12,435 nucleotides of DNA, taken from NCBI GenBank assembly GCA_964645485.1, contig CAZXZO010000006.1, positions 62,798-75,232 of the forward strand. The letters are read 5' to 3'. Below are positions 868 through 12,435 of this stretch, piece after piece. The DNA is from an uncultured Candidatus Poseidoniales archaeon. Lineage in GTDB: Archaea > Thermoplasmatota > Poseidoniia > Poseidoniales > Thalassarchaeaceae. The notes below the pieces were generated by a model. It was not told the DNA's origin and did no database searches. It saw nothing but the letters and a program-made list of their open reading frames with translations. The position numbers and the translations under genes are program-made. Position 1 is the first letter of the stretch, and each line of letters begins with the position of its first letter.

Positions 868-2121
868 TCACAGTCTTGCTCCAACAGCGTCTGACCAAGC
901 ATCAGCATTTAGTGAGCCATACCCATACCTCAAATGATGCTCACCTGGCGCTTGGAAAACCCCTGGTTCTGATGAGTTGGCTAGAGCCGCCTTCACTAAT
1001 TGAATGGGTGTACGGTCGCCTTGGTGGGTAGGACTGAGCCCCGGGTTGCCGTTGTATCTTTCAAGAATTAACGCAAGTGCACCTGTCACAAATACTGTCG
1101 AATCGCTAGTACCATCACTTCTCGACCAGGTTGCTCCTGTTCGTTGTGAAACAAATGTAGAGTGGATTTCAACCCCAGGAGCAACTACCTCTGGTTTCTG
1201 ATTTGGCCAAAGTCTATTCTCCCCAGATGCGTTGGTGGGTGAGCCGGAACTTGAATACTGCCAGAGGGAATTATTACGATGAACTGCACCAACTGCTATC
1301 ACACCATCAACATTAGCAGGCACAGTGACATCTGGGTAATCTTGGCCAGCACCTCCATGATTACCCGCTGCGGCAACAACGAAAATCCCATTGTCAAGAG
1401 CATCACTAACTGCACCTTCTGTTCTGCCACCAAATGTGGAAACTAAGTCTGGCTTGCCACCCAGACTCAAACTGATAATATCTGCTCCCATGGTTGTCCA
1501 GCACCATTCAATGGCATCCGCAACAGCGACTTCTGATCCCGAACCGCCATCAGCACCAAGAGCTGCCGCAACAATCAATTGTACATTTGGTGCTGCACCC
1601 ACAAATGAACCATTGGCAACAAGGATTCCTGCCATCATTGTCCCATGAGATTGCGTCAAGTCATTATCATGAGGGTTTCCTTCAGTTCCCTGAATGAAGT
1701 CTTTGAAACCTACAAGATTTACTCCTACTAAATCTGGATGCGTTGTATCTATTCCTGTATCAACGATACAAACACGTACCCCTTTACCACTATATCCGTC
1801 AGCGTTTAAGGTGCGTATCCCTGAATTTTCGTAGGCCCATTCCGATTCAGGAATGAACTCATCTAGATAACCTACTATGGAACTATAACTAATCATCAGT
1901 GCAACGATTAACCCAACCATCATCCATAACCCCCATGGGAGGTTTAACGGTGGTTTACGAGGTTTTACCGCATCTGCTTCCTTCCAGGCTTGAGGGTCCT
2001 TTTCCGCTGGCATCCCATATGCCTCCGCGGGGTATCCCGGTGCTCCCGGGTCAATTGTGGAAAGCATCCGCGGGTCTTCGGGTTCTGGCAGAAATTCAAC
2101 GCCTTCCAAACCCGGTATCAC
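868..2121 (-). CDS. S8 family (subtilisin-like) serine peptidase with an N-terminal membrane anchor
   Basis: Catalytic triad motifs are present: IVDTGID (D121), SHGTMMAG (H159) and DGTS (S339), plus the oxyanion-hole motif AAGN (N254) and KPEVVAPG. A hydrophobic helix spans aa ~63-86. The GTG start at 2121 is preceded by GGTGA, and an in-frame TAG at 2152-2154 closes the frame upstream. Confidence 0.93.
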   Translation of the reverse strand: MIPGLEGVEFLPEPEDPRMLSTIDPGAPGYPAEAYGMPAEKDPQAWKEADAVKPRKPPLNLPWGLWMMVGLIVALMISYSSIVGYLDEFIPESEWAYENSGIRTLNADGYSGKGVRVCIVDTGIDTTHPDLVGVNLVGFKDFIQGTEGNPHDNDLTQSHGTMMAGILVANGSFVGAAPNVQLIVAAALGADGGSGSEVAVADAIEWCWTTMGADIISLSLGGKPDLVSTFGGRTEGAVSDALDNGIFVVAAAGNHGGAGQDYPDVTVPANVDGVIAVGAVHRNNSLWQYSSSGSPTNASGENRLWPNQKPEVVAPGVEIHSTFVSQRTGATWSRSDGTSDSTVFVTGALALILERYNGNPGLSPTHQGDRTPIQLVKAALANSSEPGVFQAPGEHHLRYGYGSLNADAWSDAVGARL

Positions 2122-2125
2122 GGCC

Positions 2126-2130
2126 TCACC
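2126..2130 (-). promoter_or_regulatory. Shine-Dalgarno GGTGA for the subtilase
   Basis: The archaeal SD core GGTGA lies 4 nt upstream of the GTG at 2121. Confidence 0.55.
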
Positions 2131-2221
2131 CAGTCTCCGGTAAAGAAGGTGCTAAATGCACTCTTCGGCGTTTAGTTCTCCATTCACCCTAGTTATTGAC
2201 TAAGGATTAGGCTGTGTGTCA

Positions 2222-5200
2222 TCAGAATGGCATTTGTCCACTTATTGAATCACGGATTCTACGGAATCCTATGAATCCAAGGATAAATGCTGCTATGATA
2301 ATCAACGGTACCCAAACATTCACCGATTCCGGTGGTGGGGTTGCTACCTTCAACGCACGTGTGATACTTTCATCAGACTCTACGTCTAAATCAAGTCCAA
2401 ATTCACTCTGTAAAGTAAAGACGAAATTCTTGGTGCCAATTCCTACATCATCTAAATCTATGAAGAGAATGTACTCAGCACTCTCTCCAATAGCAATATC
2501 CTTTGATTCGGAGACGATATAAATATCATCATACCCTTCAATTGAGATATTAACTCGAATTGATTTAGCACCAACAAGACCTGTATTTTCTACTACGACA
2601 ATCATCTTATTGCTCTTTCCAGAAACTGCATCTTCGCCATTAAATGTCCCTGTGTTTTCTACTACGAAGTTTAGAACTGGCTTTGCAGCCTTCACCTGTA
2701 ATTCAATCGGGTCATATGCAGTACCATCAGTACTGTTGATGTTTAGGGTAAGTGTAAATGGTGTAGTATCAGCGCCTGCAGGTGCAAAGATGGTGAAGGA
2801 GTATGTTCTCTCCTCTCCGTGTGCCCAAGGTGATTCACTAGGTCCTGTAGCACTCCAACTCTCTGGTAACCATGATGTGTCAATATCAAAACCAAGCATA
2901 TCTTGGCCATTTCCTGTGTTCTTAATTACGAATTCAACACGCCTTTCCTCTCCCGGGAATACACCAATTGTATCTTCGGGTGATGAGATTATCTCAATTG
3001 AATAGGTCTGCGGAATGTGTACTTTTAAGACATATTCACTGAATGTACCTGTGGAATGAGTTGTCCGAAGTTTGATTACATGGCCTCCAGAAATTGATTG
3101 CGCATCCTCAACATCAGCAGTTGTCACACGCATTCGTATGGATGTAGTATCTTCTCCATCCAATCCAAGAGTTACAGGTGTTGTCTCGCTCCACATCTCT
3201 GTTCCATTTTCATCTGTTCCATTATAGAACTCAATATTCCAGTGGTCGCCATCTTCTGCGTCAAAGACAGTTCCAACTGTATATTCATCAAAGGCTTCAT
3301 TTCCGTTGTAAGTCAAATTGACAGTGAATTCAATCACTTGGTATGCAGATTCATTTGCGTATAATGCATTCACTTCTTCATTGCTATCATCTGTTTGCTC
3401 TGCTCCGCTAATTGAAGTCACATTGAAATCAATTGAATGCTCAAGGATTCTATTGTAATTGAATGTCGTTGCAGGGGCTTCTTGTTGAGCAGAAATTGAA
3501 CTTGTCAATCCAGCACGGTAAACCATTGCCATTCCTCGCTCGTTTGTCTCAAACACGCCATCGAGGTAGAGGTCGCCAGCAGGTAGCAAGAAATTAATCT
3601 CGCCGTTTGAATCCACTGTTTCATTCCAACTGATTGTACCCAAGATTGTAATCTTAATTTCAGGAGTACCGATTATTTCAGCACCAGCGACATTAGTCTC
3701 ACTAAGGTCGTGGCTCGCTCCTTCAAAGTCAATCCAATTTGTGCTGAGTGACATCGTCCCGCCTTGAATCATTGTTGAGTTTACATGTGTACCATCGTGA
3801 ACATCAGCCTCTACAATTGAGATGCCAACAATTCCTTCATCAACAACTGTAGCAGAGAGAATCCAATCACCTGGTTCAACATCAGCAATCCACTCACCGT
3901 CCCAAGAACCATCAGTAGCCATAACCTTAGTTGGGGTACGGGAATCTCTTTCAATTCCTGATGCTGGCATTAGGGTTAGAACTACATCATCTGAAAAGTC
4001 ATCCCACAATTCCATTTGCACATAATCAACCAATCCGGATATTGTCACATTTCCAGCAGTTAACTCAAGATCTGTTGAGTTGGAAACGGTTGATACTTGA
4101 GCAACGATTGATACCGAGGAGAAACCAAGTTGAGATGCTTCAACAGAGTAATTGTTTACGGATGGAACAAATAATTGCCATGTCCCGTATGCAGAACTTG
4201 TCAAGTTGACTGGTTCATCAAGGCCACCACCAAAGACAGTGATGTTTGCACCTTCAACACCTTCATTGAAATCGTACTCGTCATCCGAATCTAAATCCCA
4301 GAACAGGTTTCCTCCAAGAGTAACCCAATGTTCAACTGAGAAATTGATGTTTGACAGATTTTGGCCAGCAGACAATGTCGCTAGTTGTTGGTCTTCCAAG
4401 ACCCACCTATCCATCGATTCTGTGCGGTTAAGTGAAACTACCCAATCTCCGGGGTACAAATAACCTACCATATTGCCTTGGTCATCAGTGTATGGCAGAA
4501 CTACCTCGCCATAACCATCTGAACTAGTTGCAGTTAATGAGAAACCGGTTAGTGGGTCTCCTGTATCACCTTCTGAAAGATGAATTGCTACCTCAGATGA
4601 TTCTAATGATCGCCATAACAAACCAGTTCTAGATGAGGTTTCATTTGCTGAAATAGCGCCTCTAAATTGCTCGTATGTGTCCGAAACCAAAGTTCGGTCA
4701 ACTACAACAATCCAATCACCTTCAGGTATGTAATCTGAAATTGTACCATTTTCATCTGCTACGATTTGGAATGACTTTTCTGAATCAACCGAATTAAAGG
4801 TGACTGACAAATTATCTAGCACACCTCCTGATTGGTTAATTAGGCTGGCTTCCACCTTCCATGATGGTTCAAGTATCAATTCAGTAAACACTGTAGTTGT
4901 ATTGTCCAAACCTAATTCAAGAATGAGGTCATTGTCAATAAGAACAGTATCAAAGTCTGAACCATTTATCTTATTTTGTGCATCAATTGCAATAGTGTAA
5001 ACACCTGGCTGCAATGAAGTCTCAATACTTCCGTTAGCCATTTGCTCTGCACTAATGTTGAGTCTTGTACCAACACTTCCTCCAGATATTGGCACGAAGG
5101 CAAAATCAATCTCTACCAAAGTGCCATTCGTGATATTTCCATCAAGTGAATGGTCAAGGAAAGCAGAAACGTCAACAGTTACATTTGAAGGGTTGGCGAT

Positions 5201-8200
5201 AAGTTCTACATTGGAAATCTTCGCAATGTTTGAATCTGAAACCTCTACCTCTAATGCTTCAACGTTTAATCTCTCATCTGAAACATCAAATGTCCAGTTT
5301 CCTTCCATCAATTTCTGAGAAAAGCGTCCAGTCTCAGGGTCGATATCGAAGTACCAGTGTACATCTTGGTCAACTTGATATGCATGCAATTGCACATTCG
5401 CAAATCCAGGAACATGAGGAGTATATGCAGTTTGATTCTCAAACAGGTAAAGCATACCATCCACCAACATACCTTCCTCTACACGAAGAATAACCGGGGA
5501 AACATCATCAGATACAGTAAATTTGGTACCATTTGACATTTGGTTTGCAATAGATACAGTGGTCATATTCACCTCTACACCTTCAGGCAAGAGTACCGAG
5601 AAATTACCAGCCTCAGAACCATAACTTGTTTGCGTGGAAGTAGTAATACCGCCCCATTGGAATTTCACCTCAATATTTGGGACTCCTTCTTCGGGTGTTT
5701 CTGCTTTGCCAGTATCGACAAGAATTTGTCCTGTAACATTGATACTTCTCCTGAGCATCCAAGAAAGGTCGCTGACATCCTCTGTCAACTCAAATTCTTC
5801 CCACAACATCAGTTCACCACCAGATGAAGATGTATTGGCTACCCACTCACCTTCAGGTAATTCTACTCGATAAGTACCAGATTCATTGTCATAAATTGAT
5901 TCAACGTACTCATCGTCTGATAACAATACACTGTGGAAATTAATGATTTCATCAGTAACAGGTTCAACTGAACCTCCACCAAGGTCCTTCATCAGAGTGA
6001 ATTCCATATCATAATGCATAGGAATAGCAGCGTCATCGCTTGCCATAGTGAAATTCATCGGGTCGATTGTCGCAGTGATTGCTGCACGCCCATCACAGAA
6101 CTGAACCGTTGCTGGTGTCCTCCATGGTACACATTCGTTGAAACCATCGCCATCAGAATCCATCACCATCTCATATGAACCATCAGGAATTGGCCCATAA
6201 CCAAAGGAACCGTTTTCATCGGTTGTTATGATACAAGGTGCAAACAGAACCTCTGTACAAGGTTCAGTAGCCTCTTCATCAATGCTAACTTCAGTTAAGT
6301 AAAGGTCAGTATTTGCAACTGGTTCTCCATCAAACCAAGCTAAATCACCGTCAATCCAAGACCCTGGAAGGTGTAATTCAACACCACTAGTTGCGGTTGT
6401 TTCAACTTCAAGAGGAGTGCTCAACCTTGTGATATTTCCATTAGGAAGAACAACAAATACTCGATAAGAGCCAGGTAGGGCGTCGACTAGATGGAATGAA
6501 CCCGGCTCAACCATTGAACCACTGAAAATTCCAGCACCGCTAAATGTCCCGCTGCCGTTGATTGTTCCAAATGTGTCAAGACTCTCATCCGTTCCATCGG
6601 TGAAGAAAATACCGTTGCCAACAAGGGTTTCACGATATAAATCGGCTGTGTAATCAACGGAACCATTTGCAGTAACTTTTCCTGTTCCATCAAAAGTTCC
6701 TGAGAATAGATATGTCACTGGGTCCGAACCCTCTAGTGAACACATTTCAGAGGATTCAGGAATTGTTTCATTTACACACGTAGGGATTGTTCCACTACTG
6801 GTGATATCACCAACGAATTGGCCATCCCCAGAGAACGTGCCAACACCCGTAAATGAGTGATTATTTGCAATCTGTCTTGTGTAATTTCCAGTGAAATCAG
6901 AAACCAATACATCGCCATCAGTTACTACCAAACCTGCGCCAGTAAAGGTCACCTCTCCTTCGCCACGGAAAACACGAGGGTGTTCATCGGTGGACGTAAC
7001 TGTACCGTTAGTAGTCCAAATGTGCTCCAATTCTTCTTCAGTCCAGATATCGGTGAAAATTAATTCGTGATCACTCAAAGGCAAGCCATTGAATGAGGAA
7101 TGTCCTTCCCAAGTAACAATTCCTGTTGCGCTGGATGCTTCTATGGTCATTGACTTTGAAATAACTGCGCCACCATTGGTATCTGCTTGTGCACCGGTGA
7201 CATTGAAATCCATTTCTCCAAGTAATTTTCCACCACTAACATTTGCTAGAATACCTGTAATTGGATTAACTTCCCTAACATCCCCAGTTGATTCCCCGAG
7301 GATGTCGGCAAACCACTCTTGCCAATCCTGGAAACTGTTTTGTGCTGAGACGATTGCATCTCGGTCCTGATTACGCAAAACCTGTTCATCCTCAGCAAAT
7401 CCTGAAAACGCTGTTACACGAATGTGACCTGCTGGTACACGGAACTCAAATCGTCCATTTTCATCGGCATCAACAGTGCCAATAGGAATCCAATATTCTC
7501 TAGGGTCTTCATCAAAGATGTCTTCGCCACTGTAAGCGTCACGTTCAATCAAAAGGCGAGCCTTAGGAACAACTCCGAAGTCTCCTAATTTCACTTCACC
7601 ACTGAGGGTCGCACCACTGTAGTACTTGAGTATCTTTACTCCTGTGTTAGCATCGTACCAAGGGGTTGTTTCAGTTGCTTCTTCATTATACCAATTTGCG
7701 ATAACAAAGTTTGGCATCATAGCACCTGGAAGCGGGTATGCATATTGTAAACTGCTATTTGAGCTGCCTCTCAAGTCAAAGTGTTGACCTGGTTGAGCAA
7801 TCTTTCCAGGGATTCCCAATTGTGGGCTACCATATCCAATATAGGTGCGCGCAACCATGGTATCGAAGAATTCTGGCTCTTGGTCAACTCGCAAATCAAC
7901 CGCTTGAATAATATCTACATCTTGTGATTCACTCATGACAATATCATTCTTGTATTGCTCTTCATATTCTGCTTGTGTCATGTCCACAACGAAATTAGAA
8001 CTGCCTCTTTGAGTAACATACCATGTCTTCATGTATGTCTCAGGGTCAAGACCTGCAAGTGTGGTTGGTGCATAGAAAATACCTGTTGGATTTCCACCAC
8101 TGGTCTGATATGACCCGCCGGTAGGATAGAGACGATTGTCAACACCGAAATAACGAATGTCGTGATTTCGAGTTATTGTGTCGCCTGGGCTTCCTTCTGA

Positions 8201-11200
8201 ATCTGCAACTGTGTAAGTAATTTCATTTGTTAACTTATGATAAATGTCAACTAATTCAGGCATTTCTAGGACCGTAGTCAAGAAAACTCTACCAAGTGCT
8301 AAGCGAGCATTCTGCCTGTGAATTGAAGATGAAACATCATCAAAACTCTCAACAATATCTTTTGTGTACCAATAATTTCCGATTACTTGGTGACTGAATT
8401 CATCAACAACTTCATCGTTCCTGTCCTTGGATTGATTGAATTGAATCAATGCATCATTTTCATTGTTGAAATCACCGCCGATTTGCTCTTCACTTTCGTA
8501 TACTCGATAGATTGTAGCAGAGGTAGGCATTCCATTGTAATCAAGCACATGGCCTTCACCAAGCGAAATTGCGCCGGCTTTCTTAGTGATTGAGAAAGAG
8601 CGGTCGGTTAAATCTTCAACCCCATTTTCCCCACCTAAGGTATTCAGGAGGAAGAATTCCTCAATTTGACTGTCTGTCATGTGGTCTTGTAAAATACGCT
8701 CGAAGTCAGGAGTAAATGTGCCACCGTTGTATCTCAAATCACCCTCAGCGAGAGTCATAGTGTATAGCGAAAGTAAGTCATGGTCACTTTGGGCTAACAA
8801 CATATTTCCTGCAGCAGGAATTCCCGATTGGAAGTTGTCAGCGACTGTTGGATGCTTACCTTGAGCCAATGCCTGGAAGCCATAATCCCACCATGAAACA
8901 AATGCAGGCCTTTGCCCAAATGGGACATCAGCATCTTGCTCTTCAAGCCATTGATAGCCTTCATTCCAATATTGTCCATTGAACCCAGGTCCAAATGCAC
9001 CCATGTACCAACAACTGCTTTCCTTGGAGGCTCCCCGGCAATGACTGGGCGGATTATATTGAGTTGAATCTAAGAAAGACCAACCAAAGATAGGGTCTTC
9101 CGCGCGTAGAATATTCGGGGTTAGATTGTATATGTTTGAATCTATATCCTTAGCCTTTGAATTCCCCGATGGGATTCCTGAATCTAATCCATAGGTAGCA
9201 TGTTGTGCACCTACTAACAGGAAAACCATCAATATCGCAACTACTCCAGGGAATTTTCTAGCAGTCTTAGTTGTTGAAGAGAAGCGTGCTCGTGGTGAGC
9301 CAATTCCAAGCCTTCTCCAAGCCTTAGCGAAATCAGTTCCACCAACCCATTGCCACATGATGACGAATGCCCAAGCACCCATCACAGCAACTGGAGGAGT
9401 TGCATTGAAAATGAATCTTCCAGCACGCCAAGCCATTACCCCAGCAACTAATATCCAAATTGCTAGAACTAGTCTGCTACTATCACGACGTCGGAGACCT
9501 TGCCAAAGGGCAATGAATCCGGCAAATAATGCTGCCAATGCAACAATCGGGCCAAATGATGCGAACAACATGGCTCTACTCGGAGCCTGTGCTTCCGCAA
9601 TAGTATCGAAGATCTTGTTCTTTGATAGATAGTATCCACCTGTGAAGAGAACATCCCAGCCGTTGTATAATCCAATAAATTGAATCAACCATAGTGCACC
9701 AAGGATGACACCCGCAAGAGCACCACCACTGACCAAAACCAGCAACCATGGTTTATCACGGAATGAAACTGCAACCCAACCGGCTGCAAATGTGAATCCT
9801 ACAATGTAGAACATTGGTTGGAAACCACTTGCATCGAATACCAATCCTAATTGCATATGTGCATAGAATGGTAGTGGTATCAAGAAAGTAACCAGCATCA
9901 TTGTCATAGCAGACACATACAATGCCATACTGTCCCTTCTGCGGAATTGATTAATCACAATCTGAGCGAAGAATGCCAAGAAGACGATTCCAAGACCATA
10001 GACGAATCCTTTCCAACCTAATGCAACAGTTGAGAATGCAATACCAGATAGAATGGCATTAGCAATTGCTCCTTGTCGCTTTTCAAAAGTGGCTTTGATT
10101 CCTTTAAACAAATATGCAGGTGACCAATTTGCATTGGGCACCATTTTGTCATCTCCTGCAGCCTTAACTGCTTTCAGCCAGAAATAGAATCCGAGTGAAA
10201 GGAAGAGAATTGCAAATGCATCGTGGTCAGCCAAAGCGAAGGTGCTGTGACCAACGTGACCAGGCATCAAAGCAATCAACCAAGCCGCAACTGCACCAGT
10301 TGCACGACCGAAGAATCGGTTGCCAATTCCAGCAATTGGAAGCACAGTTAGTGCTCCGTAAATTGCTGGTAGAGCGGCTACTGACCACCAAACAGCTTCT
10401 GATGATGGAACATCAAGCAGAGGCGCTAACATCATGCCTCCAACTGCCAAACTCCACGAAAACAATGGTGGACGTGGGTTGATAGCACCAAGTGGATATG
10501 AACGGTCCATATCAATAATGAAATGATTATGTTCAGCAATGATGTACTCAACTGTTCTCATCATGTACCATGGGTCAGAACCACCAGTCAAATCCCACTC
10601 ATGAGTACCACTAGAGTTCATGAACGGAATGACATTCCATACGACACGAACTAGCAAGCCAAAGAATAGAGCAGCACCGACTGTGATACCGTACCAATGC
10701 TCTGACCAAAATTGCTTAGCAAGACCTGGGTTCCTTCTCGGTGAGCTGTCCCCTAATTTTCCTTTGACACTTAACATCACAACTAGCACATTGAGCCAGA
10801 AGAAGATGAAGAACCAAACAAACATACCATTATTTCCTGAAAAATATGAGTGCCATTCTTGTGAACCATTCATAATTATTCCATTCTCATGGAAAGAGCC
10901 AAGTGAGAAAATTAACCAGTTCATACCGATTAAACCTCCACGAGTACGCATGTTTTCTGCAAAGCAGTAAGCAGTTAGTAGTGCAATAACACCAGTAAAT
11001 AGTGGCCACCAAACTCCGATTGAATCGCCTGAAACCCTCTGAACTTCTGTTGCTGAGAAGAAAGATGCTTCTGATATTAGGTGGGCTGCCAGCCAGACTC
11101 CAAATGCCGCAAACAAAGGAATGTATGCTTTATTTTCGATTTTTTCTGGAAGAAGAGAGAACCACCCCTTTGTGCTAGGCTTGACAAATCTGCCACGAAT

Positions 11201-11806
11201 TCCCAATGTGACTAGGATTCCAGTAACGATTGATATCATCCAGCCGTTGAAGAATAGGAATGCTGTTGCCTCCCTATGTCCGTCCATTGAACCCCACACA
11301 TTCTCTGTGAGAGTGGGGAGCCAAGCCCCGTTCACGTACTGAGTACCGTCCCAAGAAGGGGCGGCAACAGCAGCAAAGGATAGTGCCGCGTAGAAGCCCA
11401 TCACAATCCAAATGAGAAGGTTCGCTTCATCGTTGCGACCGACCCTATCGAAAATGTGGACTCCGAATGCTAATGTTAGGAATAACACTCCAAGTAGAGT
11501 GTTCCCTAGAATCAACTGTGGAATCGCTGCTGCGATTACCAATGGCGAGTAGATTAGCAATGTGACCTGTGCAGGCTTCACTCCGAGGTTTGAGAAGACG
11601 ATTCTTGGCACACTGCCGAACATTGCGCCGATCGTGAGTAACACGAACGGCAATACTTGCGTCATAATTGCTGTCTCTTGATCATAGGTCACACCTAGTG
11701 GATACATTGCCATTGTCATCAGCAGCAGAATTAGTGCCGCTAATGGTGCTCTAGCAAGCCCCCACGCTACATTACGTAGCACAGATGCGTTTCCTTCATT
11801 TTCCAT
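2222..11806 (-). CDS. aglB: Giant oligosaccharyltransferase AglB/STT3 (~3,194 aa) with an extra N-terminal multi-TM domain and a C-terminal Cna-B/carboxypeptidase-regulatory-like and Ig-like extension with a TM anchor
   Basis: STT3 motifs occur in the right order: GSDPWYMMR (10565-10576), LADHDAF (DHD 10220-10228), TIAE (9593-9604), SWWDYG (WWDYG 8879-8893) and VADNFQ, in a core with about 13 TM helices. I place the start at the ATG at 11806 (MENEG), which has a GAGGT SD; the ORF track starts 30 codons earlier at a GTG. TGA stop at 2222-2224. Confidence 0.93.
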   Translation of the reverse strand: MENEGNASVLRNVAWGLARAPLAALILLLMTMAMYPLGVTYDQETAIMTQVLPFVLLTIGAMFGSVPRIVFSNLGVKPAQVTLLIYSPLVIAAAIPQLILGNTLLGVLFLTLAFGVHIFDRVGRNDEANLLIWIVMGFYAALSFAAVAAPSWDGTQYVNGAWLPTLTENVWGSMDGHREATAFLFFNGWMISIVTGILVTLGIRGRFVKPSTKGWFSLLPEKIENKAYIPLFAAFGVWLAAHLISEASFFSATEVQRVSGDSIGVWWPLFTGVIALLTAYCFAENMRTRGGLIGMNWLIFSLGSFHENGIIMNGSQEWHSYFSGNNGMFVWFFIFFWLNVLVVMLSVKGKLGDSSPRRNPGLAKQFWSEHWYGITVGAALFFGLLVRVVWNVIPFMNSSGTHEWDLTGGSDPWYMMRTVEYIIAEHNHFIIDMDRSYPLGAINPRPPLFSWSLAVGGMMLAPLLDVPSSEAVWWSVAALPAIYGALTVLPIAGIGNRFFGRATGAVAAWLIALMPGHVGHSTFALADHDAFAILFLSLGFYFWLKAVKAAGDDKMVPNANWSPAYLFKGIKATFEKRQGAIANAILSGIAFSTVALGWKGFVYGLGIVFLAFFAQIVINQFRRRDSMALYVSAMTMMLVTFLIPLPFYAHMQLGLVFDASGFQPMFYIVGFTFAAGWVAVSFRDKPWLLVLVSGGALAGVILGALWLIQFIGLYNGWDVLFTGGYYLSKNKIFDTIAEAQAPSRAMLFASFGPIVALAALFAGFIALWQGLRRRDSSRLVLAIWILVAGVMAWRAGRFIFNATPPVAVMGAWAFVIMWQWVGGTDFAKAWRRLGIGSPRARFSSTTKTARKFPGVVAILMVFLLVGAQHATYGLDSGIPSGNSKAKDIDSNIYNLTPNILRAEDPIFGWSFLDSTQYNPPSHCRGASKESSCWYMGAFGPGFNGQYWNEGYQWLEEQDADVPFGQRPAFVSWWDYGFQALAQGKHPTVADNFQSGIPAAGNMLLAQSDHDLLSLYTMTLAEGDLRYNGGTFTPDFERILQDHMTDSQIEEFFLLNTLGGENGVEDLTDRSFSITKKAGAISLGEGHVLDYNGMPTSATIYRVYESEEQIGGDFNNENDALIQFNQSKDRNDEVVDEFSHQVIGNYWYTKDIVESFDDVSSSIHRQNARLALGRVFLTTVLEMPELVDIYHKLTNEITYTVADSEGSPGDTITRNHDIRYFGVDNRLYPTGGSYQTSGGNPTGIFYAPTTLAGLDPETYMKTWYVTQRGSSNFVVDMTQAEYEEQYKNDIVMSESQDVDIIQAVDLRVDQEPEFFDTMVARTYIGYGSPQLGIPGKIAQPGQHFDLRGSSNSSLQYAYPLPGAMMPNFVIANWYNEEATETTPWYDANTGVKILKYYSGATLSGEVKLGDFGVVPKARLLIERDAYSGEDIFDEDPREYWIPIGTVDADENGRFEFRVPAGHIRVTAFSGFAEDEQVLRNQDRDAIVSAQNSFQDWQEWFADILGESTGDVREVNPITGILANVSGGKLLGEMDFNVTGAQADTNGGAVISKSMTIEASSATGIVTWEGHSSFNGLPLSDHELIFTDIWTEEELEHIWTTNGTVTSTDEHPRVFRGEGEVTFTGAGLVVTDGDVLVSDFTGNYTRQIANNHSFTGVGTFSGDGQFVGDITSSGTIPTCVNETIPESSEMCSLEGSDPVTYLFSGTFDGTGKVTANGSVDYTADLYRETLVGNGIFFTDGTDESLDTFGTINGSGTFSGAGIFSGSMVEPGSFHLVDALPGSYRVFVVLPNGNITRLSTPLEVETTATSGVELHLPGSWIDGDLAWFDGEPVANTDLYLTEVSIDEEATEPCTEVLFAPCIITTDENGSFGYGPIPDGSYEMVMDSDGDGFNECVPWRTPATVQFCDGRAAITATIDPMNFTMASDDAAIPMHYDMEFTLMKDLGGGSVEPVTDEIINFHSVLLSDDEYVESIYDNESGTYRVELPEGEWVANTSSSGGELMLWEEFELTEDVSDLSWMLRRSINVTGQILVDTGKAETPEEGVPNIEVKFQWGGITTSTQTSYGSEAGNFSVLLPEGVEVNMTTVSIANQMSNGTKFTVSDDVSPVILRVEEGMLVDGMLYLFENQTAYTPHVPGFANVQLHAYQVDQDVHWYFDIDPETGRFSQKLMEGNWTFDVSDERLNVEALEVEVSDSNIAKISNVELIANPSNVTVDVSAFLDHSLDGNITNGTLVEIDFAFVPISGGSVGTRLNISAEQMANGSIETSLQPGVYTIAIDAQNKINGSDFDTVLIDNDLILELGLDNTTTVFTELILEPSWKVEASLINQSGGVLDNLSVTFNSVDSEKSFQIVADENGTISDYIPEGDWIVVVDRTLVSDTYEQFRGAISANETSSRTGLLWRSLESSEVAIHLSEGDTGDPLTGFSLTATSSDGYGEVVLPYTDDQGNMVGYLYPGDWVVSLNRTESMDRWVLEDQQLATLSAGQNLSNINFSVEHWVTLGGNLFWDLDSDDEYDFNEGVEGANITVFGGGLDEPVNLTSSAYGTWQLFVPSVNNYSVEASQLGFSSVSIVAQVSTVSNSTDLELTAGNVTISGLVDYVQMELWDDFSDDVVLTLMPASGIERDSRTPTKVMATDGSWDGEWIADVEPGDWILSATVVDEGIVGISIVEADVHDGTHVNSTMIQGGTMSLSTNWIDFEGASHDLSETNVAGAEIIGTPEIKITILGTISWNETVDSNGEINFLLPAGDLYLDGVFETNERGMAMVYRAGLTSSISAQQEAPATTFNYNRILEHSIDFNVTSISGAEQTDDSNEEVNALYANESAYQVIEFTVNLTYNGNEAFDEYTVGTVFDAEDGDHWNIEFYNGTDENGTEMWSETTPVTLGLDGEDTTSIRMRVTTADVEDAQSISGGHVIKLRTTHSTGTFSEYVLKVHIPQTYSIEIISSPEDTIGVFPGEERRVEFVIKNTGNGQDMLGFDIDTSWLPESWSATGPSESPWAHGEERTYSFTIFAPAGADTTPFTLTLNINSTDGTAYDPIELQVKAAKPVLNFVVENTGTFNGEDAVSGKSNKMIVVVENTGLVGAKSIRVNISIEGYDDIYIVSESKDIAIGESAEYILFIDLDDVGIGTKNFVFTLQSEFGLDLDVESDESITRALKVATPPPESVNVWVPLIIIAAFILGFIGFRRIRDSISGQMPF
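2330..3450 (-). other. About three C-terminal Ig-like domains (NPCBM-associated/NEW3-like and CARDB-like) within AglB
   Basis: Patterns such as 'VEFVIKNTGNGQD...PESWSA' and 'MIVVVENTGLVGAKSIRVNISIEG...DIAIGES' resemble NEW3 and CARDB repeats of archaeal surface proteins. Boundaries are approximate. Confidence 0.55.
3570..7620 (-). repeat. About 11-12 degenerate Cna-B/carboxypeptidase-regulatory-like (prealbumin-fold) protein repeats within AglB
   Basis: A recurring T/A-D-x-x-G-x-(F/Y)-x4-5-P-x-G-x-(W/Y) motif: ADENGRFEFRVPAGHI, TDENGSFGYGPIPDGSY, DNESGTYRVELPEGEW, DPETGRFSQKLMEGNW, ANGSIETSLQPGVY, ADENGTISDYIPEGDW, TDDQGNMVGYLYPGDW, DSNGEINFLLPAGDL and others. Confidence 0.75.
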
Positions 11807-11874: not shown

Positions 11875-11952
11875 CCGTTGCCAAACGAGCGCGCACCCGC
11901 CTACGCGCACGTAAGGGCCATAGGCGTAGTCCAACACTTGGAATTTTATTCT

Positions 11953-12435
11953 CTACAACGCTCTAAAACCAATGTCCGAACGATAGTGAGAACCCTGCAA
12001 TATGATGCCATTCATCAATGAATATGCAAGATTTCTAGCCTCTTCCAAGTTTGACCCGATGCCTGTGCAAGCAAGAACTCTGCCACCACTTGAGAGCAAA
12101 TCACCATCACTTCCATGCTTTGTCCCCGCATGATGAATGAACGCGCCGCCGTCCGCGTTTGCAATCAGCCCAAGTTCAATTGAAATAGGCAATCCTTTAC
12201 GCGGAGAATCAGGATATCCTTCCGCTGCAAGAACAACTGTCAACGCTGATGAATCGGTAAATTCAGGAGTGTGAGAACCCACTTCTCCAGAAGCAACTGA
12301 AAACAATAATTCGTAAAGGTCACTAGAAATTAATGGTACAGTAACTTGTGTTTCAGGGTCACCGAATCGTACGTTATACTCGACAACATAAGGGTCACCC
12401 AATTCATTAATCATTAGCCCAACATAGAGGCAACC
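11953..12435 (-). CDS. purD: Phosphoribosylamine--glycine ligase (GAR synthetase), C-terminal part; the gene starts beyond the window
   Basis: The frame is open to base 12435 (GCLYVGLMINELGDPYVVEYNVRFGDPETQ). PurD signatures EYNVRFGDPETQ, VVLAAEGYP, HAGT, SGGRVL and YRSDIG are present. TAG stop at 11953-11955. Confidence 0.96.
   Translation of the reverse strand, partial: GCLYVGLMINELGDPYVVEYNVRFGDPETQVTVPLISSDLYELLFSVASGEVGSHTPEFTDSSALTVVLAAEGYPDSPRKGLPISIELGLIANADGGAFIHHAGTKHGSDGDLLSSGGRVLACTGIGSNLEEARNLAYSLMNGIILQGSHYRSDIGFRAL

What the first reader, a model, noticed from the sequence alone, without database searches (positions are those of the whole stretch)
2222..11806. A ~3,200-aa single-chain oligosaccharyltransferase with intact catalytic motifs
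Seen: a 9.6-kb uninterrupted ORF in three parts, namely an extra TM domain (~370 aa), the STT3 core (~1,030 aa) and a stalk plus anchor (~1,800 aa). Known: typical AglB/PglB/STT3 proteins are well under about 1,000 aa, and eukaryotes add accessory functions through separate subunits. From memory, C-terminally extended AglBs occur in Thermoplasmatota, so the family may already be in databases, but I know of no functional description of this size and layout. Inference: a one-polypeptide equivalent of a multi-subunit OST, or an OST doubling as a structural surface protein.
Basis: partly seen in the sequence, partly recalled or inferred. Interest (0 to 1): 0.8.

Follow-up and report, generated by a model that had tools for sequence, protein, structure and literature searches.

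The report
Giant 24-helix archaeal oligosaccharyltransferase (AglB)
This is a real, intact 3,194-residue version of the enzyme that attaches sugars to secreted proteins, from a Marine Group II ocean archaeon, carrying ten extra membrane helices in front and a long, sugar-site-rich surface stalk with its own membrane anchor behind; the design is conserved and already in databases, but I found no study of it.

Summary
One uninterrupted ORF lies on the minus strand (2222-11806 from the ATG; 3,194 aa). It has three parts: an N-terminal 10-helix membrane domain, a complete AglB/STT3 core and a roughly 1,600-1,800-aa beta-sandwich stalk ending in a C-terminal membrane helix. The catalytic motifs are invariant across 35 relatives: D441, D557-H-D559, T765-I-A-E768 and WWDYG 1002-1006.

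It is not a chimera. It is the only STT3 found in this 82%-complete genome. Same-sized open frames occur in all three families and ten genera of the order sampled, in conserved synteny (purD, OST, S8 subtilase). An 89%-identical 3,219-aa protein is also on record from an 'uncultured marine group II/III euryarchaeote'.

The stalk plus anchor is phylum-wide in Thermoplasmatota (2,076-2,750 aa, including cultured Thermoplasma volcanium). The N-terminal domain occurs only in Marine Group II, is always fused, and has no detectable relative anywhere.

Glycosylation sequons are three-fold enriched in the stalk. The most likely reading is a working OST whose own glycosylated ectodomain is part of the cell surface.

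No paper I could search describes this architecture. This scan has already noted it at least 72 times on other genomes, with the same conclusions. I class it as a new variant of a known kind.

The parts
2222..11806 (-). Whole gene: giant AglB/STT3 oligosaccharyltransferase, 3,194 aa from the ATG (an upstream in-frame GTG at 11896 would give 3,224 aa). Residue numbers below count from that GTG (protein P0001).
10727..11806 (-). N-terminal orphan membrane domain, residues 31-390, with 10 predicted TM helices and the N-terminus inside. Conserved cytoplasmic-face motifs are R234-G235 and A-E314-(N/R)-x-x-T-R. It is specific to Marine Group II and always fused to the OST.
9107..10726 (-). STT3/AglB transmembrane domain (13 TM helices), residues about 391-930.
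   Evidence: Pfam PF02516; VIA Z 30.6 to 3WAJ_A over model residues 374-1018; Foldseek E 2.3e-15 to 7E9S_A
10574..10576 (-). Catalytic Asp D441 in external loop 1 (GGSDPWY). It aligns with the GGNDPWY of A. fulgidus AglB-L.
   Evidence: (invariant in 35 sequences)
10220..10228 (-). Second acidic motif D557-H-D559. It aligns with the D-H-H of AfAglB-L.
9593..9604 (-). TIXE motif T765-I-A-E768 in external loop 5.
   Evidence: (T and E invariant)
8879..8893 (-). WWDYG motif, residues 1002-1006.
   Evidence: (invariant)
7148..9106 (-). Extracellular catalytic/peripheral domain of the AglB core, residues about 931-1583. Its last beta-sandwich (about 1425-1583) superposes on the C-terminal peripheral domain of AfAglB-L (residues 776-868).
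   Evidence: 3waj_A, Z 8.4
2327..7147 (-). Stalk, residues about 1584-3190. It is an acidic array of transthyretin-like/CarboxypepD_reg/Cna-B-type beta-sandwiches with one Gly-rich long-strand unit and CARDB-like membrane-proximal domains. BLAST finds no internal repeats. It holds 47 N-X-S/T sequons against 16.4 expected.
2225..2326 (-). C-terminal TM anchor (VWVPLIIIAAFILGFIGF) followed by a basic cytoplasmic tail (RRIRD...). No PGF-CTERM match.
868..2121 (-). Co-directional downstream gene, 100 nt after the OST stop: a membrane-anchored S8 subtilase (417 aa). The neighbourhood is conserved in most of the Marine Group II loci examined.
11953..12435 (-). Upstream gene: 3' end of purD (GAR synthetase), a conserved neighbour.

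Best explanation
This is the sole, catalytically competent AglB-type oligosaccharyltransferase of a Marine Group II (Poseidoniales, probably Thalassarchaeaceae) archaeon, made as one 24-helix polypeptide anchored at both ends. The 13-TM GT-C core with its extracellular domain does the ordinary AglB job. It takes a glycan from a dolichol-phosphate carrier and transfers it to Asn in N-X-S/T sequons of proteins emerging at the outer face of the membrane. That function is inferred from fully conserved catalytic motifs and fold. After the core come roughly 1,600-1,800 residues of diverged beta-sandwich domains that return to the membrane through a C-terminal helix. This ectodomain is acidic and three-fold enriched in sequons. 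It is therefore very probably glycosylated heavily by the enzyme's own active site or by neighbouring copies. I infer that it forms part of the cell's glycoprotein coat or a spacer scaffold around the enzyme. The stalk plus anchor is ancestral to Thermoplasmatota. The N-terminal 10-helix domain was added in the Marine Group II lineage. Its conserved residues lie on the cytoplasmic face, and its role is unknown; possibilities are lipid-linked donor handling, docking to a translocon or partner, or stabilisation.
For: Core identity: Pfam STT3 scores 62.7 bits. phmmer aligns the core to AfAglB-L and eukaryotic STT3. The AlphaFold model has pLDDT 79.7 and pTM 0.79. VIA gives Z 30.6 to 3WAJ_A and Z 30.2 to human STT3B. 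Foldseek gives E 2.3e-15 to 7E9S_A. D441, T765/E768 and WWDYG are invariant, and D557/D559 nearly so, in 35 Thermoplasmatota sequences.

Sole OST: the own genome has one STT3 match, and every relative with a match has one.

Not an artefact: open frames of 3,160-3,540 aa occur in 3 families and 10 genera. They are colinear at 35-88% identity with conserved neighbours. An 89%-identical 3,219-aa UniRef protein comes from an uncultured marine group II/III euryarchaeote.

Stalk is ancestral: forms of 2,076-2,750 aa with a C-terminal TM occur across the phylum, including Thermoplasma volcanium GSS1. The C-terminal 340 aa are homologous between Marine Group II and the other lineages (hhalign probability 99.7%).

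Stalk as glycoprotein: 47 sequons against 16.4 +/- 3.7 expected in the stalk, and 8 against 7.0 in the rest. The same bias appears in most of the 17 orthologs tested; it is weak in the three Marine Group III and f17 sequences. The stalk is 16.6% D+E and 4% K+R.

Stalk fold: beta-sandwich arrays resembling pilins, Cna-B, transthyretin-like domains, MG domains and an S-layer protein.

Expression: a Poseidoniales oligosaccharyltransferase was among genes enriched in field metatranscriptomes (10.1101/2020.09.16.299958).
Against: No enzymatic, proteomic or glycoproteomic data exist for any giant form. The position that holds the DK motif in AfAglB-S2 reads I-P-A-A-G-N-M-L-L here, so the Ser/Thr-pocket motif type is unresolved. 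The score against the NCBIfam archaeo_STT3 model is 193.6 bits, below its 450-bit cut-off. Sequon enrichment shows selection for sites, not that they are occupied. The structural role of the stalk and any role of the N-terminal domain are inference only.
Confidence: 0.8

Rival explanations
1. Precursor model. The giant chain is cleaved after translocation, perhaps by the membrane-anchored S8 subtilase encoded 100 nt downstream. The products would be an ordinary-sized AglB and a separate, C-terminally anchored surface glycoprotein, so fusion would only ensure co-synthesis and glycosylation in cis.
For: An S8 subtilase lies directly downstream and co-directional in most of the Marine Group II loci examined. 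The canonical AglB-L fold ends at about residue 1583. The P. torridus STT3 was detected in all three culture-filtrate secretome replicates (PMC8345856); I did not verify the length of that protein.
Against: Other Thermoplasmatota with the same stalk have no adjacent protease; they have a CARDB partner gene instead. No poorly conserved linker is evident at the core-stalk junction, where identity stays at 44-54%. The secretome in question also contained many cytoplasmic proteins, so lysis or vesicles could explain the detection.
Confidence: 0.12
2. Accessory-platform model. The stalk is not an envelope component but a built-in accessory of the enzyme. It would be a lectin, chaperone or substrate-holding scaffold, or a molecular ruler, playing the part that lumenal domains of non-catalytic subunits play in eukaryotic OST.
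For: The stalk is colinear, with little domain gain or loss, across Marine Group II families at only 20-35% identity, and has no internal repeats. This suggests each domain has its own role. Single domains resemble beta-sandwiches of ER quality-control and insertion machinery: NOMO in the BOS complex at Z 9.4, UGGT at Z 8.8, EMC at Z 7.9. A paralogous CARDB-plus-anchor partner is translationally coupled to the OST gene in other Thermoplasmatota.
Against: These Z scores are at the level of generic beta-sandwich similarity. No match to ribophorin, OST48, Ost3/6 or malectin families was seen in Pfam. The strong sequon enrichment and acidity are typical of surface glycoproteins.
Confidence: 0.2
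3. Assembly chimera, or a fusion created by a sequencing error that joins separate genes.
For: The window comes from a metagenome-assembled genome of 55 contigs. In one single-contig relative (G026) the gene is split into 1,603- and 1,646-aa frames.
Against: The same uninterrupted architecture appears in dozens of independent assemblies across 10 genera, and in a UniRef protein from an uncultured marine group II/III euryarchaeote. The G026 split is an overlap of two frames of the same colinear gene, which is a frameshift and not two separate genes.
Confidence: 0.01
4. Catalytically dead pseudo-enzyme retained only as a surface or structural protein.
For: The DK/MI motif is not recognisable. 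The score against the NCBIfam subfamily model is low.
Against: All metal-binding and acceptor-binding motifs are invariant. It is the only STT3 in these genomes. The core is the most conserved part of the protein, at 53-60% identity.
Confidence: 0.03

Closest known systems
Archaeoglobus fulgidus AglB-L (PDB 3WAJ/3WAK/5GMY/7E9S, 868 aa) and other characterised archaeal AglBs
   Same: It shares the 13-TM GT-C fold and extracellular domain (VIA Z 30.6, Foldseek E 2.3e-15). It shares the catalytic Asp in EL1, the D-x-D/H motif, TIXE and WWDYG. The C-terminal peripheral beta-sandwich of AfAglB-L superposes on the first stalk domain (Z 8.4).
   Different: This protein is 3.7 times longer. It has 10 extra N-terminal TM helices, about 1,600 further residues of beta-sandwich domains and a second membrane anchor. 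The DK-motif position is not conserved. Sequence identity to AfAglB-L is only about 16-21%.
Giant stalked AglBs of other Thermoplasmatota (for example Thermoplasma volcanium TVG1271204, 2,076 aa; Marine Group III forms of about 2,350 aa)
   Same: They have a homologous core. The stalk is colinear though very diverged. The CARDB-like C-terminal module and TM anchor are homologous (hhalign probability 99.7%). The stalk is sequon-rich.
   Different: They lack the N-terminal 10-TM domain and their stalks are 350-750 aa shorter. Many carry a translationally coupled gene of 257-301 aa downstream, encoding signal peptide, CARDB domain and anchor. In Marine Group II that position holds an S8 subtilase.
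Eukaryotic OST complex (STT3A/B plus ribophorins, OST48, DAD1, OST4, TMEM258 and others; PDB 6S7O/6S7T)
   Same: The catalytic subunit has the same fold (Z 30.2 to human STT3B). In concept, both surround STT3 with extra TM helices and large beta-sandwich domains on the non-cytoplasmic side.
   Different: Here everything is one chain. No sequence or specific fold similarity to any non-catalytic subunit was found, so the resemblance is architectural only.
NOMO (nodal modulator, BOS complex, PDB 9C7V) and Gram-positive pilins / Cna-B / CarboxypepD_reg arrays
   Same: These are strings of transthyretin-like/prealbumin-type beta-sandwiches. NOMO also ends in a C-terminal TM anchor. Single-domain Z scores are 8-10.
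   Different: There is no detectable sequence homology and the matches are single domains only. None of these proteins is fused to an enzyme of this kind.

Membership tests
AglB/STT3/PglB oligosaccharyltransferase (GT-C, CAZy GT66; Pfam PF02516) | Sequence match to the STT3 profile above its curated threshold | tested here: met
   PF02516 scores 62.7 bits against a cut-off of 24.5, over residues 440-799. The same match was found in the genome search.
AglB/STT3/PglB oligosaccharyltransferase (GT-C, CAZy GT66; Pfam PF02516) | 13-TM GT-C fold with an extracellular C-terminal domain | tested here: met
   AlphaFold model pLDDT 79.7. VIA gives Z 30.6, rmsd 3.5 and 462 aligned residues to 3WAJ_A. Foldseek gives E 2.3e-15 to 7E9S_A.
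AglB/STT3/PglB oligosaccharyltransferase (GT-C, CAZy GT66; Pfam PF02516) | Catalytic acidic residues: the EL1 Asp, the D-x-D/H motif, and the Glu of TIXE/SVSE in EL5 | tested here: met
   D441 is invariant, D557/D559 are at least 90% conserved, and T765/E768 are invariant in 35 sequences. They align to the corresponding AfAglB-L motifs.
AglB/STT3/PglB oligosaccharyltransferase (GT-C, CAZy GT66; Pfam PF02516) | WWDXG motif | tested here: met
   WWDYG at residues 1002-1006, invariant.
AglB/STT3/PglB oligosaccharyltransferase (GT-C, CAZy GT66; Pfam PF02516) | DK, DKi or MI motif forming the Ser/Thr pocket | tested here: inconclusive
   The position aligned to D-A-A-K of AfAglB-S2 reads P-A-A-G within a conserved G-I-P-x-A-G-N-M-L-L. 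This could be an MI-like variant; I could not resolve it.
AglB/STT3/PglB oligosaccharyltransferase (GT-C, CAZy GT66; Pfam PF02516) | Transfer of a lipid-linked glycan to Asn of a sequon | not testable with these tools
   This needs an enzyme assay or genetics.
NCBIfam TIGR04154 'oligosaccharyl transferase, archaeosortase A system-associated' subfamily | Score above the curated cut-off of 450 bits | tested here: not met
   The score is 193.6 bits over residues 405-1038. The protein is related to this subfamily but is not a member by NCBI's threshold.
PGF-CTERM / archaeosortase A substrates (typical archaeal S-layer glycoprotein anchoring) | C-terminal PGF-CTERM sorting signal | tested here: not met
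   No PGF-CTERM model matched the last 60 or 300 residues at E up to 10. The C-terminus is a plain TM helix with an RRIRD tail. The genome does encode an archaeosortase A homolog (85.2 bits against a cut-off of 75).
UbiA-type intramembrane prenyltransferase (considered for the N-terminal domain) | Profile similarity and Asp-rich motifs | tested here: not met
   Structural matches are weak (8J8J_D at Z 8.5, 4TQ3_A at Z 7.2), below the noise level for helical bundles. hhalign against the UbiA proteins of the same genomes gives probability 1.3%. No conserved Asp-rich motif is present.

The most novel reading that the evidence does not exclude
In Marine Group II, and more broadly in Thermoplasmatota, the enzyme that glycosylates the cell surface is itself a principal surface protein. 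Its 1,600-1,800-aa self-glycosylated ectodomain, tethered at both ends, would form the cell's glycoprotein canopy or spacer. The Marine Group II-only 10-helix domain would be a new membrane module that couples the OST to lipid-linked donor supply or to the protein translocon. That would make it a prokaryotic, single-chain and independently evolved counterpart of the accessory subunits of eukaryotic OST.
Probability: 0.2. Interest if true: 0.8.

Novelty: new variant of a known kind. Interest (0 to 1): 0.6.

Why it matters
Marine Group II archaea are among the most abundant planktonic archaea in the surface ocean. They are uncultured, and their cell envelope is essentially unknown. Their only N-glycosylation enzyme is three to five times the size of every characterised OST, and it is conserved in that form across the whole order.

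If the stalk is a major glycosylated envelope component, it would define what the surface of these cells looks like to viruses, grazers and dissolved organic matter.

The shorter giant forms occur in cultured Thermoplasmatales, which makes the stalk experimentally tractable. The orphan 10-helix domain is a candidate new membrane-protein fold attached to a textbook enzyme.

Tried and rejected
1. Assembly chimera. Rejected because of conservation across 10 genera and a UniRef protein from an uncultured marine group II/III euryarchaeote.

2. N-terminal domain as a stand-alone gene elsewhere. It was not found in 30 Marine Group III genomes. A word-indexed profile search found only Poseidoniales fragments. 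An exhaustive HMM search of 1.84 billion representatives gave 95 hits; every full-length hit was a roughly 3,150-3,230-aa OST with the domain at residues 1-370.

3. N-terminal domain as a duplicated STT3 TM module or a UbiA-like prenyltransferase. hhalign probabilities were 0.4% and 1.3%. Pfam gave nothing consistent across 17 members. The ESM Atlas best score was 0.82, which is at noise level.

4. Internal repeats in the stalk. A BLAST self-comparison found none.

5. PGF-CTERM anchoring. No match.

6. A CARDB partner gene in this genome. The partner profile hit only a CARDB domain in an unrelated 1,640-aa frame, and the genome is 82% complete.

7. Literature. Eight searches combined AglB/STT3/oligosaccharyltransferase with Marine Group II, Poseidoniales, Thermoplasma, and 'giant' or 'largest protein'. 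None returned a description of the architecture. Two key papers are not held in the library and could not be checked: Nikolayev et al. 2020 (Mol Phylogenet Evol) and Vinogradov et al. 2012 (Glycobiology).
Full report
OBSERVATION

The window holds one very long open frame on the minus strand, 11896 to 2222 (3,224 codons from a GTG). The likely start is the ATG at 11806, giving 3,194 aa.
- A same-genus ortholog begins with this ATG directly after a stop codon.
- A GAGGT lies about 8 nt upstream, with an A-rich box further up.

Residue numbers below count from the GTG (protein P0001). Hydropathy analysis and the AlphaFold model give this layout:
- 10 TM helices at residues 31-390
- 13 further TM helices at about 391-930
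- an extracellular region
- a last TM helix at 3192-3210, followed by the basic tail RRIRD

The positive-inside rule holds throughout. In family f2, an insertion of about 200-300 aa with Asp-rich motifs sits in the loop predicted to be outside.

WHAT THE CORE IS

- Pfam STT3 matches residues 440-799 at 62.7 bits, against a cut-off of 24.5.
- NCBIfam archaeo_STT3 matches residues 405-1038 at 193.6 bits, below its 450-bit cut-off.
- phmmer against PDB sequences aligns the core to A. fulgidus AglB-L and to eukaryotic STT3A/B.
- An AlphaFold model of residues 31-1152, built from a 35-sequence alignment, has pLDDT 79.7 and pTM 0.79.
- That model matches 3WAJ_A at Z 30.6 and human STT3B at Z 30.2. 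Other GT-C enzymes follow: DPY19, PglB, ArnT and PMTs. Foldseek gives E 2.3e-15 to 7E9S_A.
- In the 35-sequence alignment, D441 (GGSDPWY), T765 and E768 (TIAE) and W1002-WDYG are invariant. D557 and D559 (DHD) are at least 90% conserved.
- The DK/MI motif could not be assigned. The aligned position reads I-P-A-A-G-N-M-L-L.
- It is the only STT3 in the genome, which is 1.94 Mb in 55 contigs and 82% complete. Each relative with a match has one.

NOT A CHIMERA

Of 41 genomes searched (the window's own plus 40 relatives, from three families and ten genera of the order), 36 have an STT3 match. Most of these lie in an open frame of 3,160-3,540 aa; the shorter frames are at contig ends.

I fetched 16 full loci. 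The proteins are colinear with the window's at 35-88% identity, and the order purD, OST, S8 subtilase, large Ig-domain protein is kept.

A UniRef protein of 3,219 aa, 89% identical, comes from an 'uncultured marine group II/III euryarchaeote'. It is named dolichyl-phosphooligosaccharide-protein glycotransferase.

Source names of close hits (Candidatus Thalassarchaeaceae at 76% identity, Poseidoniaceae for more distant ones) place the window in Marine Group II.

One single-contig relative (G026) has the gene split by a frameshift into 1,603 and 1,646 codons.

DISTRIBUTION OF THE THREE PARTS

The stalk plus anchor is old.
- The sister order in the same class has forms of 2,300-2,390 aa.
- Many other Thermoplasmatota families have forms of 2,085-2,750 aa, each ending in a TM helix.
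- Thermoplasma volcanium GSS1 TVG1271204 is 2,076 aa. Cuniculiplasma and Caldiplasma have similar proteins. They are annotated variously as GT39 family, carboxypeptidase-regulatory-like, or hypothetical.
- BLAST finds weak colinear similarity in the stalks, at 20-25% identity.
- The last 340 residues are clearly homologous between Marine Group II and the rest (hhalign probability 99.7%, E 3e-25).

The N-terminal domain is a Marine Group II addition.
- It was present and fused in 30 of 30 Marine Group II genomes and in none of 30 genomes of the sister order.
- A profile search of the 5.8-billion-protein set found only Poseidoniales fragments.
- An exhaustive HMM search of 1.84 billion representatives found 95 proteins. 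All full-length hits are OSTs of about 3,150-3,230 aa with the domain at their N-terminus.
- The domain evolves fast, at 20-35% identity between families, against 53-60% for the core.
- Its few invariant residues (R234-G235, E314 in A-E-x-x-x-T-R, W327, W361, F366) lie mostly at the cytoplasmic membrane boundary.
- Structural matches to UbiA-type and soluble prenyl synthases (Z 7-8.5) are within the noise expected for helical bundles. hhalign does not support them, nor a duplication of the STT3 TM domain.

THE STALK

An AlphaFold model of residues 1142-2330 has pLDDT 68.7 overall and about 80 from residue 1430 onward.

After the first sandwich, the model shows a helical linker, a Gly-rich unit with very long strands (G-x-G-x-F repeats) and a succession of beta-sandwiches. 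That first sandwich superposes on the last peripheral domain of AfAglB-L (Z 8.4).

Best single-domain matches are transthyretin-like/carboxypeptidase-D regulatory domains, Cna-B, pilin domains and NOMO (Z 8-10). Foldseek lists the TIE protein, pilins, alpha-2-macroglobulin MG arrays and an archaeal S-layer protein.

Pfam recognises only CarboxypepD_reg (residues 2544-2602) and a weak CARDB (3084-3140). BLAST self-comparison shows no repeats.

The stalk is 16.6% Asp+Glu and 4% Lys+Arg. It carries 47 N-X-S/T sequons against 16.4 +/- 3.7 expected from composition. The N-terminal domain plus core has 8 against 7.0. The same bias is seen in most of the 17 orthologs tested across the phylum; it is weak in the three Marine Group III and f17 sequences.

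The C-terminus is not a PGF-CTERM signal, although the genome has an archaeosortase A homolog.

NEIGHBOURS

In Marine Group II a membrane-anchored S8 subtilase follows the OST within 60-110 nt.

In several other Thermoplasmatota a gene of 257-301 aa overlaps the OST stop codon. It encodes a signal peptide, a CARDB domain and a C-terminal anchor. It is a paralog of the OST's own membrane-proximal module (hhalign probability 96.8-98.7%). The partner profile found no stand-alone copy in this genome.

INTERPRETATION

Shown:
- The gene is real and conserved.
- It is the only STT3 gene found in this genome.
- It has the full fold and motif set of an AglB.

Inferred:
- It is the working OST.
- Its stalk is itself heavily N-glycosylated and surface-exposed, so it acts as an envelope or spacer component as well as part of the enzyme.

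Rival readings, a cleaved precursor or a built-in accessory platform, cannot be excluded.

Weak outside support comes from two papers:
- A Poseidoniales OST gene was among those enriched in coastal metatranscriptomes (10.1101/2020.09.16.299958).
- The Picrophilus torridus STT3 was found in all three culture-filtrate proteomes, along with many cytoplasmic proteins (PMC8345856). I did not verify that protein's length.

NOVELTY

The sequences are in public databases under generic names. I found no paper that describes the size, the double anchoring, the stalk or the N-terminal domain. Two relevant subscription papers could not be read.

This scan has already flagged the same architecture in at least 69 other genomes. 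Follow-up conclusions there match mine.

- the exhaustive negative search for the N-terminal domain
- the negative UbiA and STT3-duplication tests
- the homology of the C-terminal module across the phylum and with the partner protein
- the replacement of that partner by an S8 subtilase in Marine Group II

I class it as a new variant of a known kind.

Noticed in passing
window 868-2121 (-): S8 subtilase of 417 aa with one N-terminal TM helix and little room for a propeptide. It lies directly downstream of the OST in most of the Marine Group II loci examined. In other Thermoplasmatota that position holds a CARDB-plus-anchor partner gene instead.
   Followed up: partly
L029:9260-10087, L037:9315-10085, L043:2812-3582 and others: In non-Marine-Group-II Thermoplasmatota, a gene of 257-301 aa (signal peptide, CARDB domain, C-terminal TM) overlaps the stop codon of the giant AglB. 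It is a paralog of the AglB's own last roughly 200 residues (hhalign probability 97-99%).
   Followed up: partly
L012:10049-12043 and L013:749-2419 (family f2 orthologs): The N-terminal membrane domain carries an insertion of 200-300 aa in the loop between TM5 and TM6. The insertion has Asp-rich DxDxDG-like motifs (for example DSDADGLPDWYE), which suggests a calcium-binding extracellular module.
   Followed up: no
L024 (G026:C1:1437000-1451800): In a single-contig Marine Group II genome the giant OST is split into overlapping frames of 1,603 and 1,646 codons. This is either a sequencing indel or a true frameshift.
   Followed up: no
L049:2949-7480 (G000:C6, just beyond the window start): The gene after the subtilase appears as frames of 274 aa and 1,247 aa overlapping by 37 nt; the longer one has Big_7 Ig-like domains. 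It may be one secreted protein broken by a frameshift, or two genes.
   Followed up: no
phylum survey, family f7 (G143, G152, G166, G171, G176, G186, G215): Seven Thermoplasmatota genomes of one family, all 99% complete, gave no STT3 match at E <= 0.001. This lineage either lacks AglB or has one too divergent for the profile.
   Followed up: no
window residues about 1620-1800 of the OST (roughly 6500-7040, minus strand): A conserved Gly-rich unit with repeated F-[ST]-G-x-G-x-F motifs is modelled as unusually long paired beta-strands. No Pfam family matches it.
   Followed up: no
L066 (G000:C7:31080-31880): The genome encodes an archaeosortase A homolog (85 bits against a cut-off of 75). PGF-CTERM surface proteins probably exist in this organism, although the OST is not one of them.
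   Followed up: no
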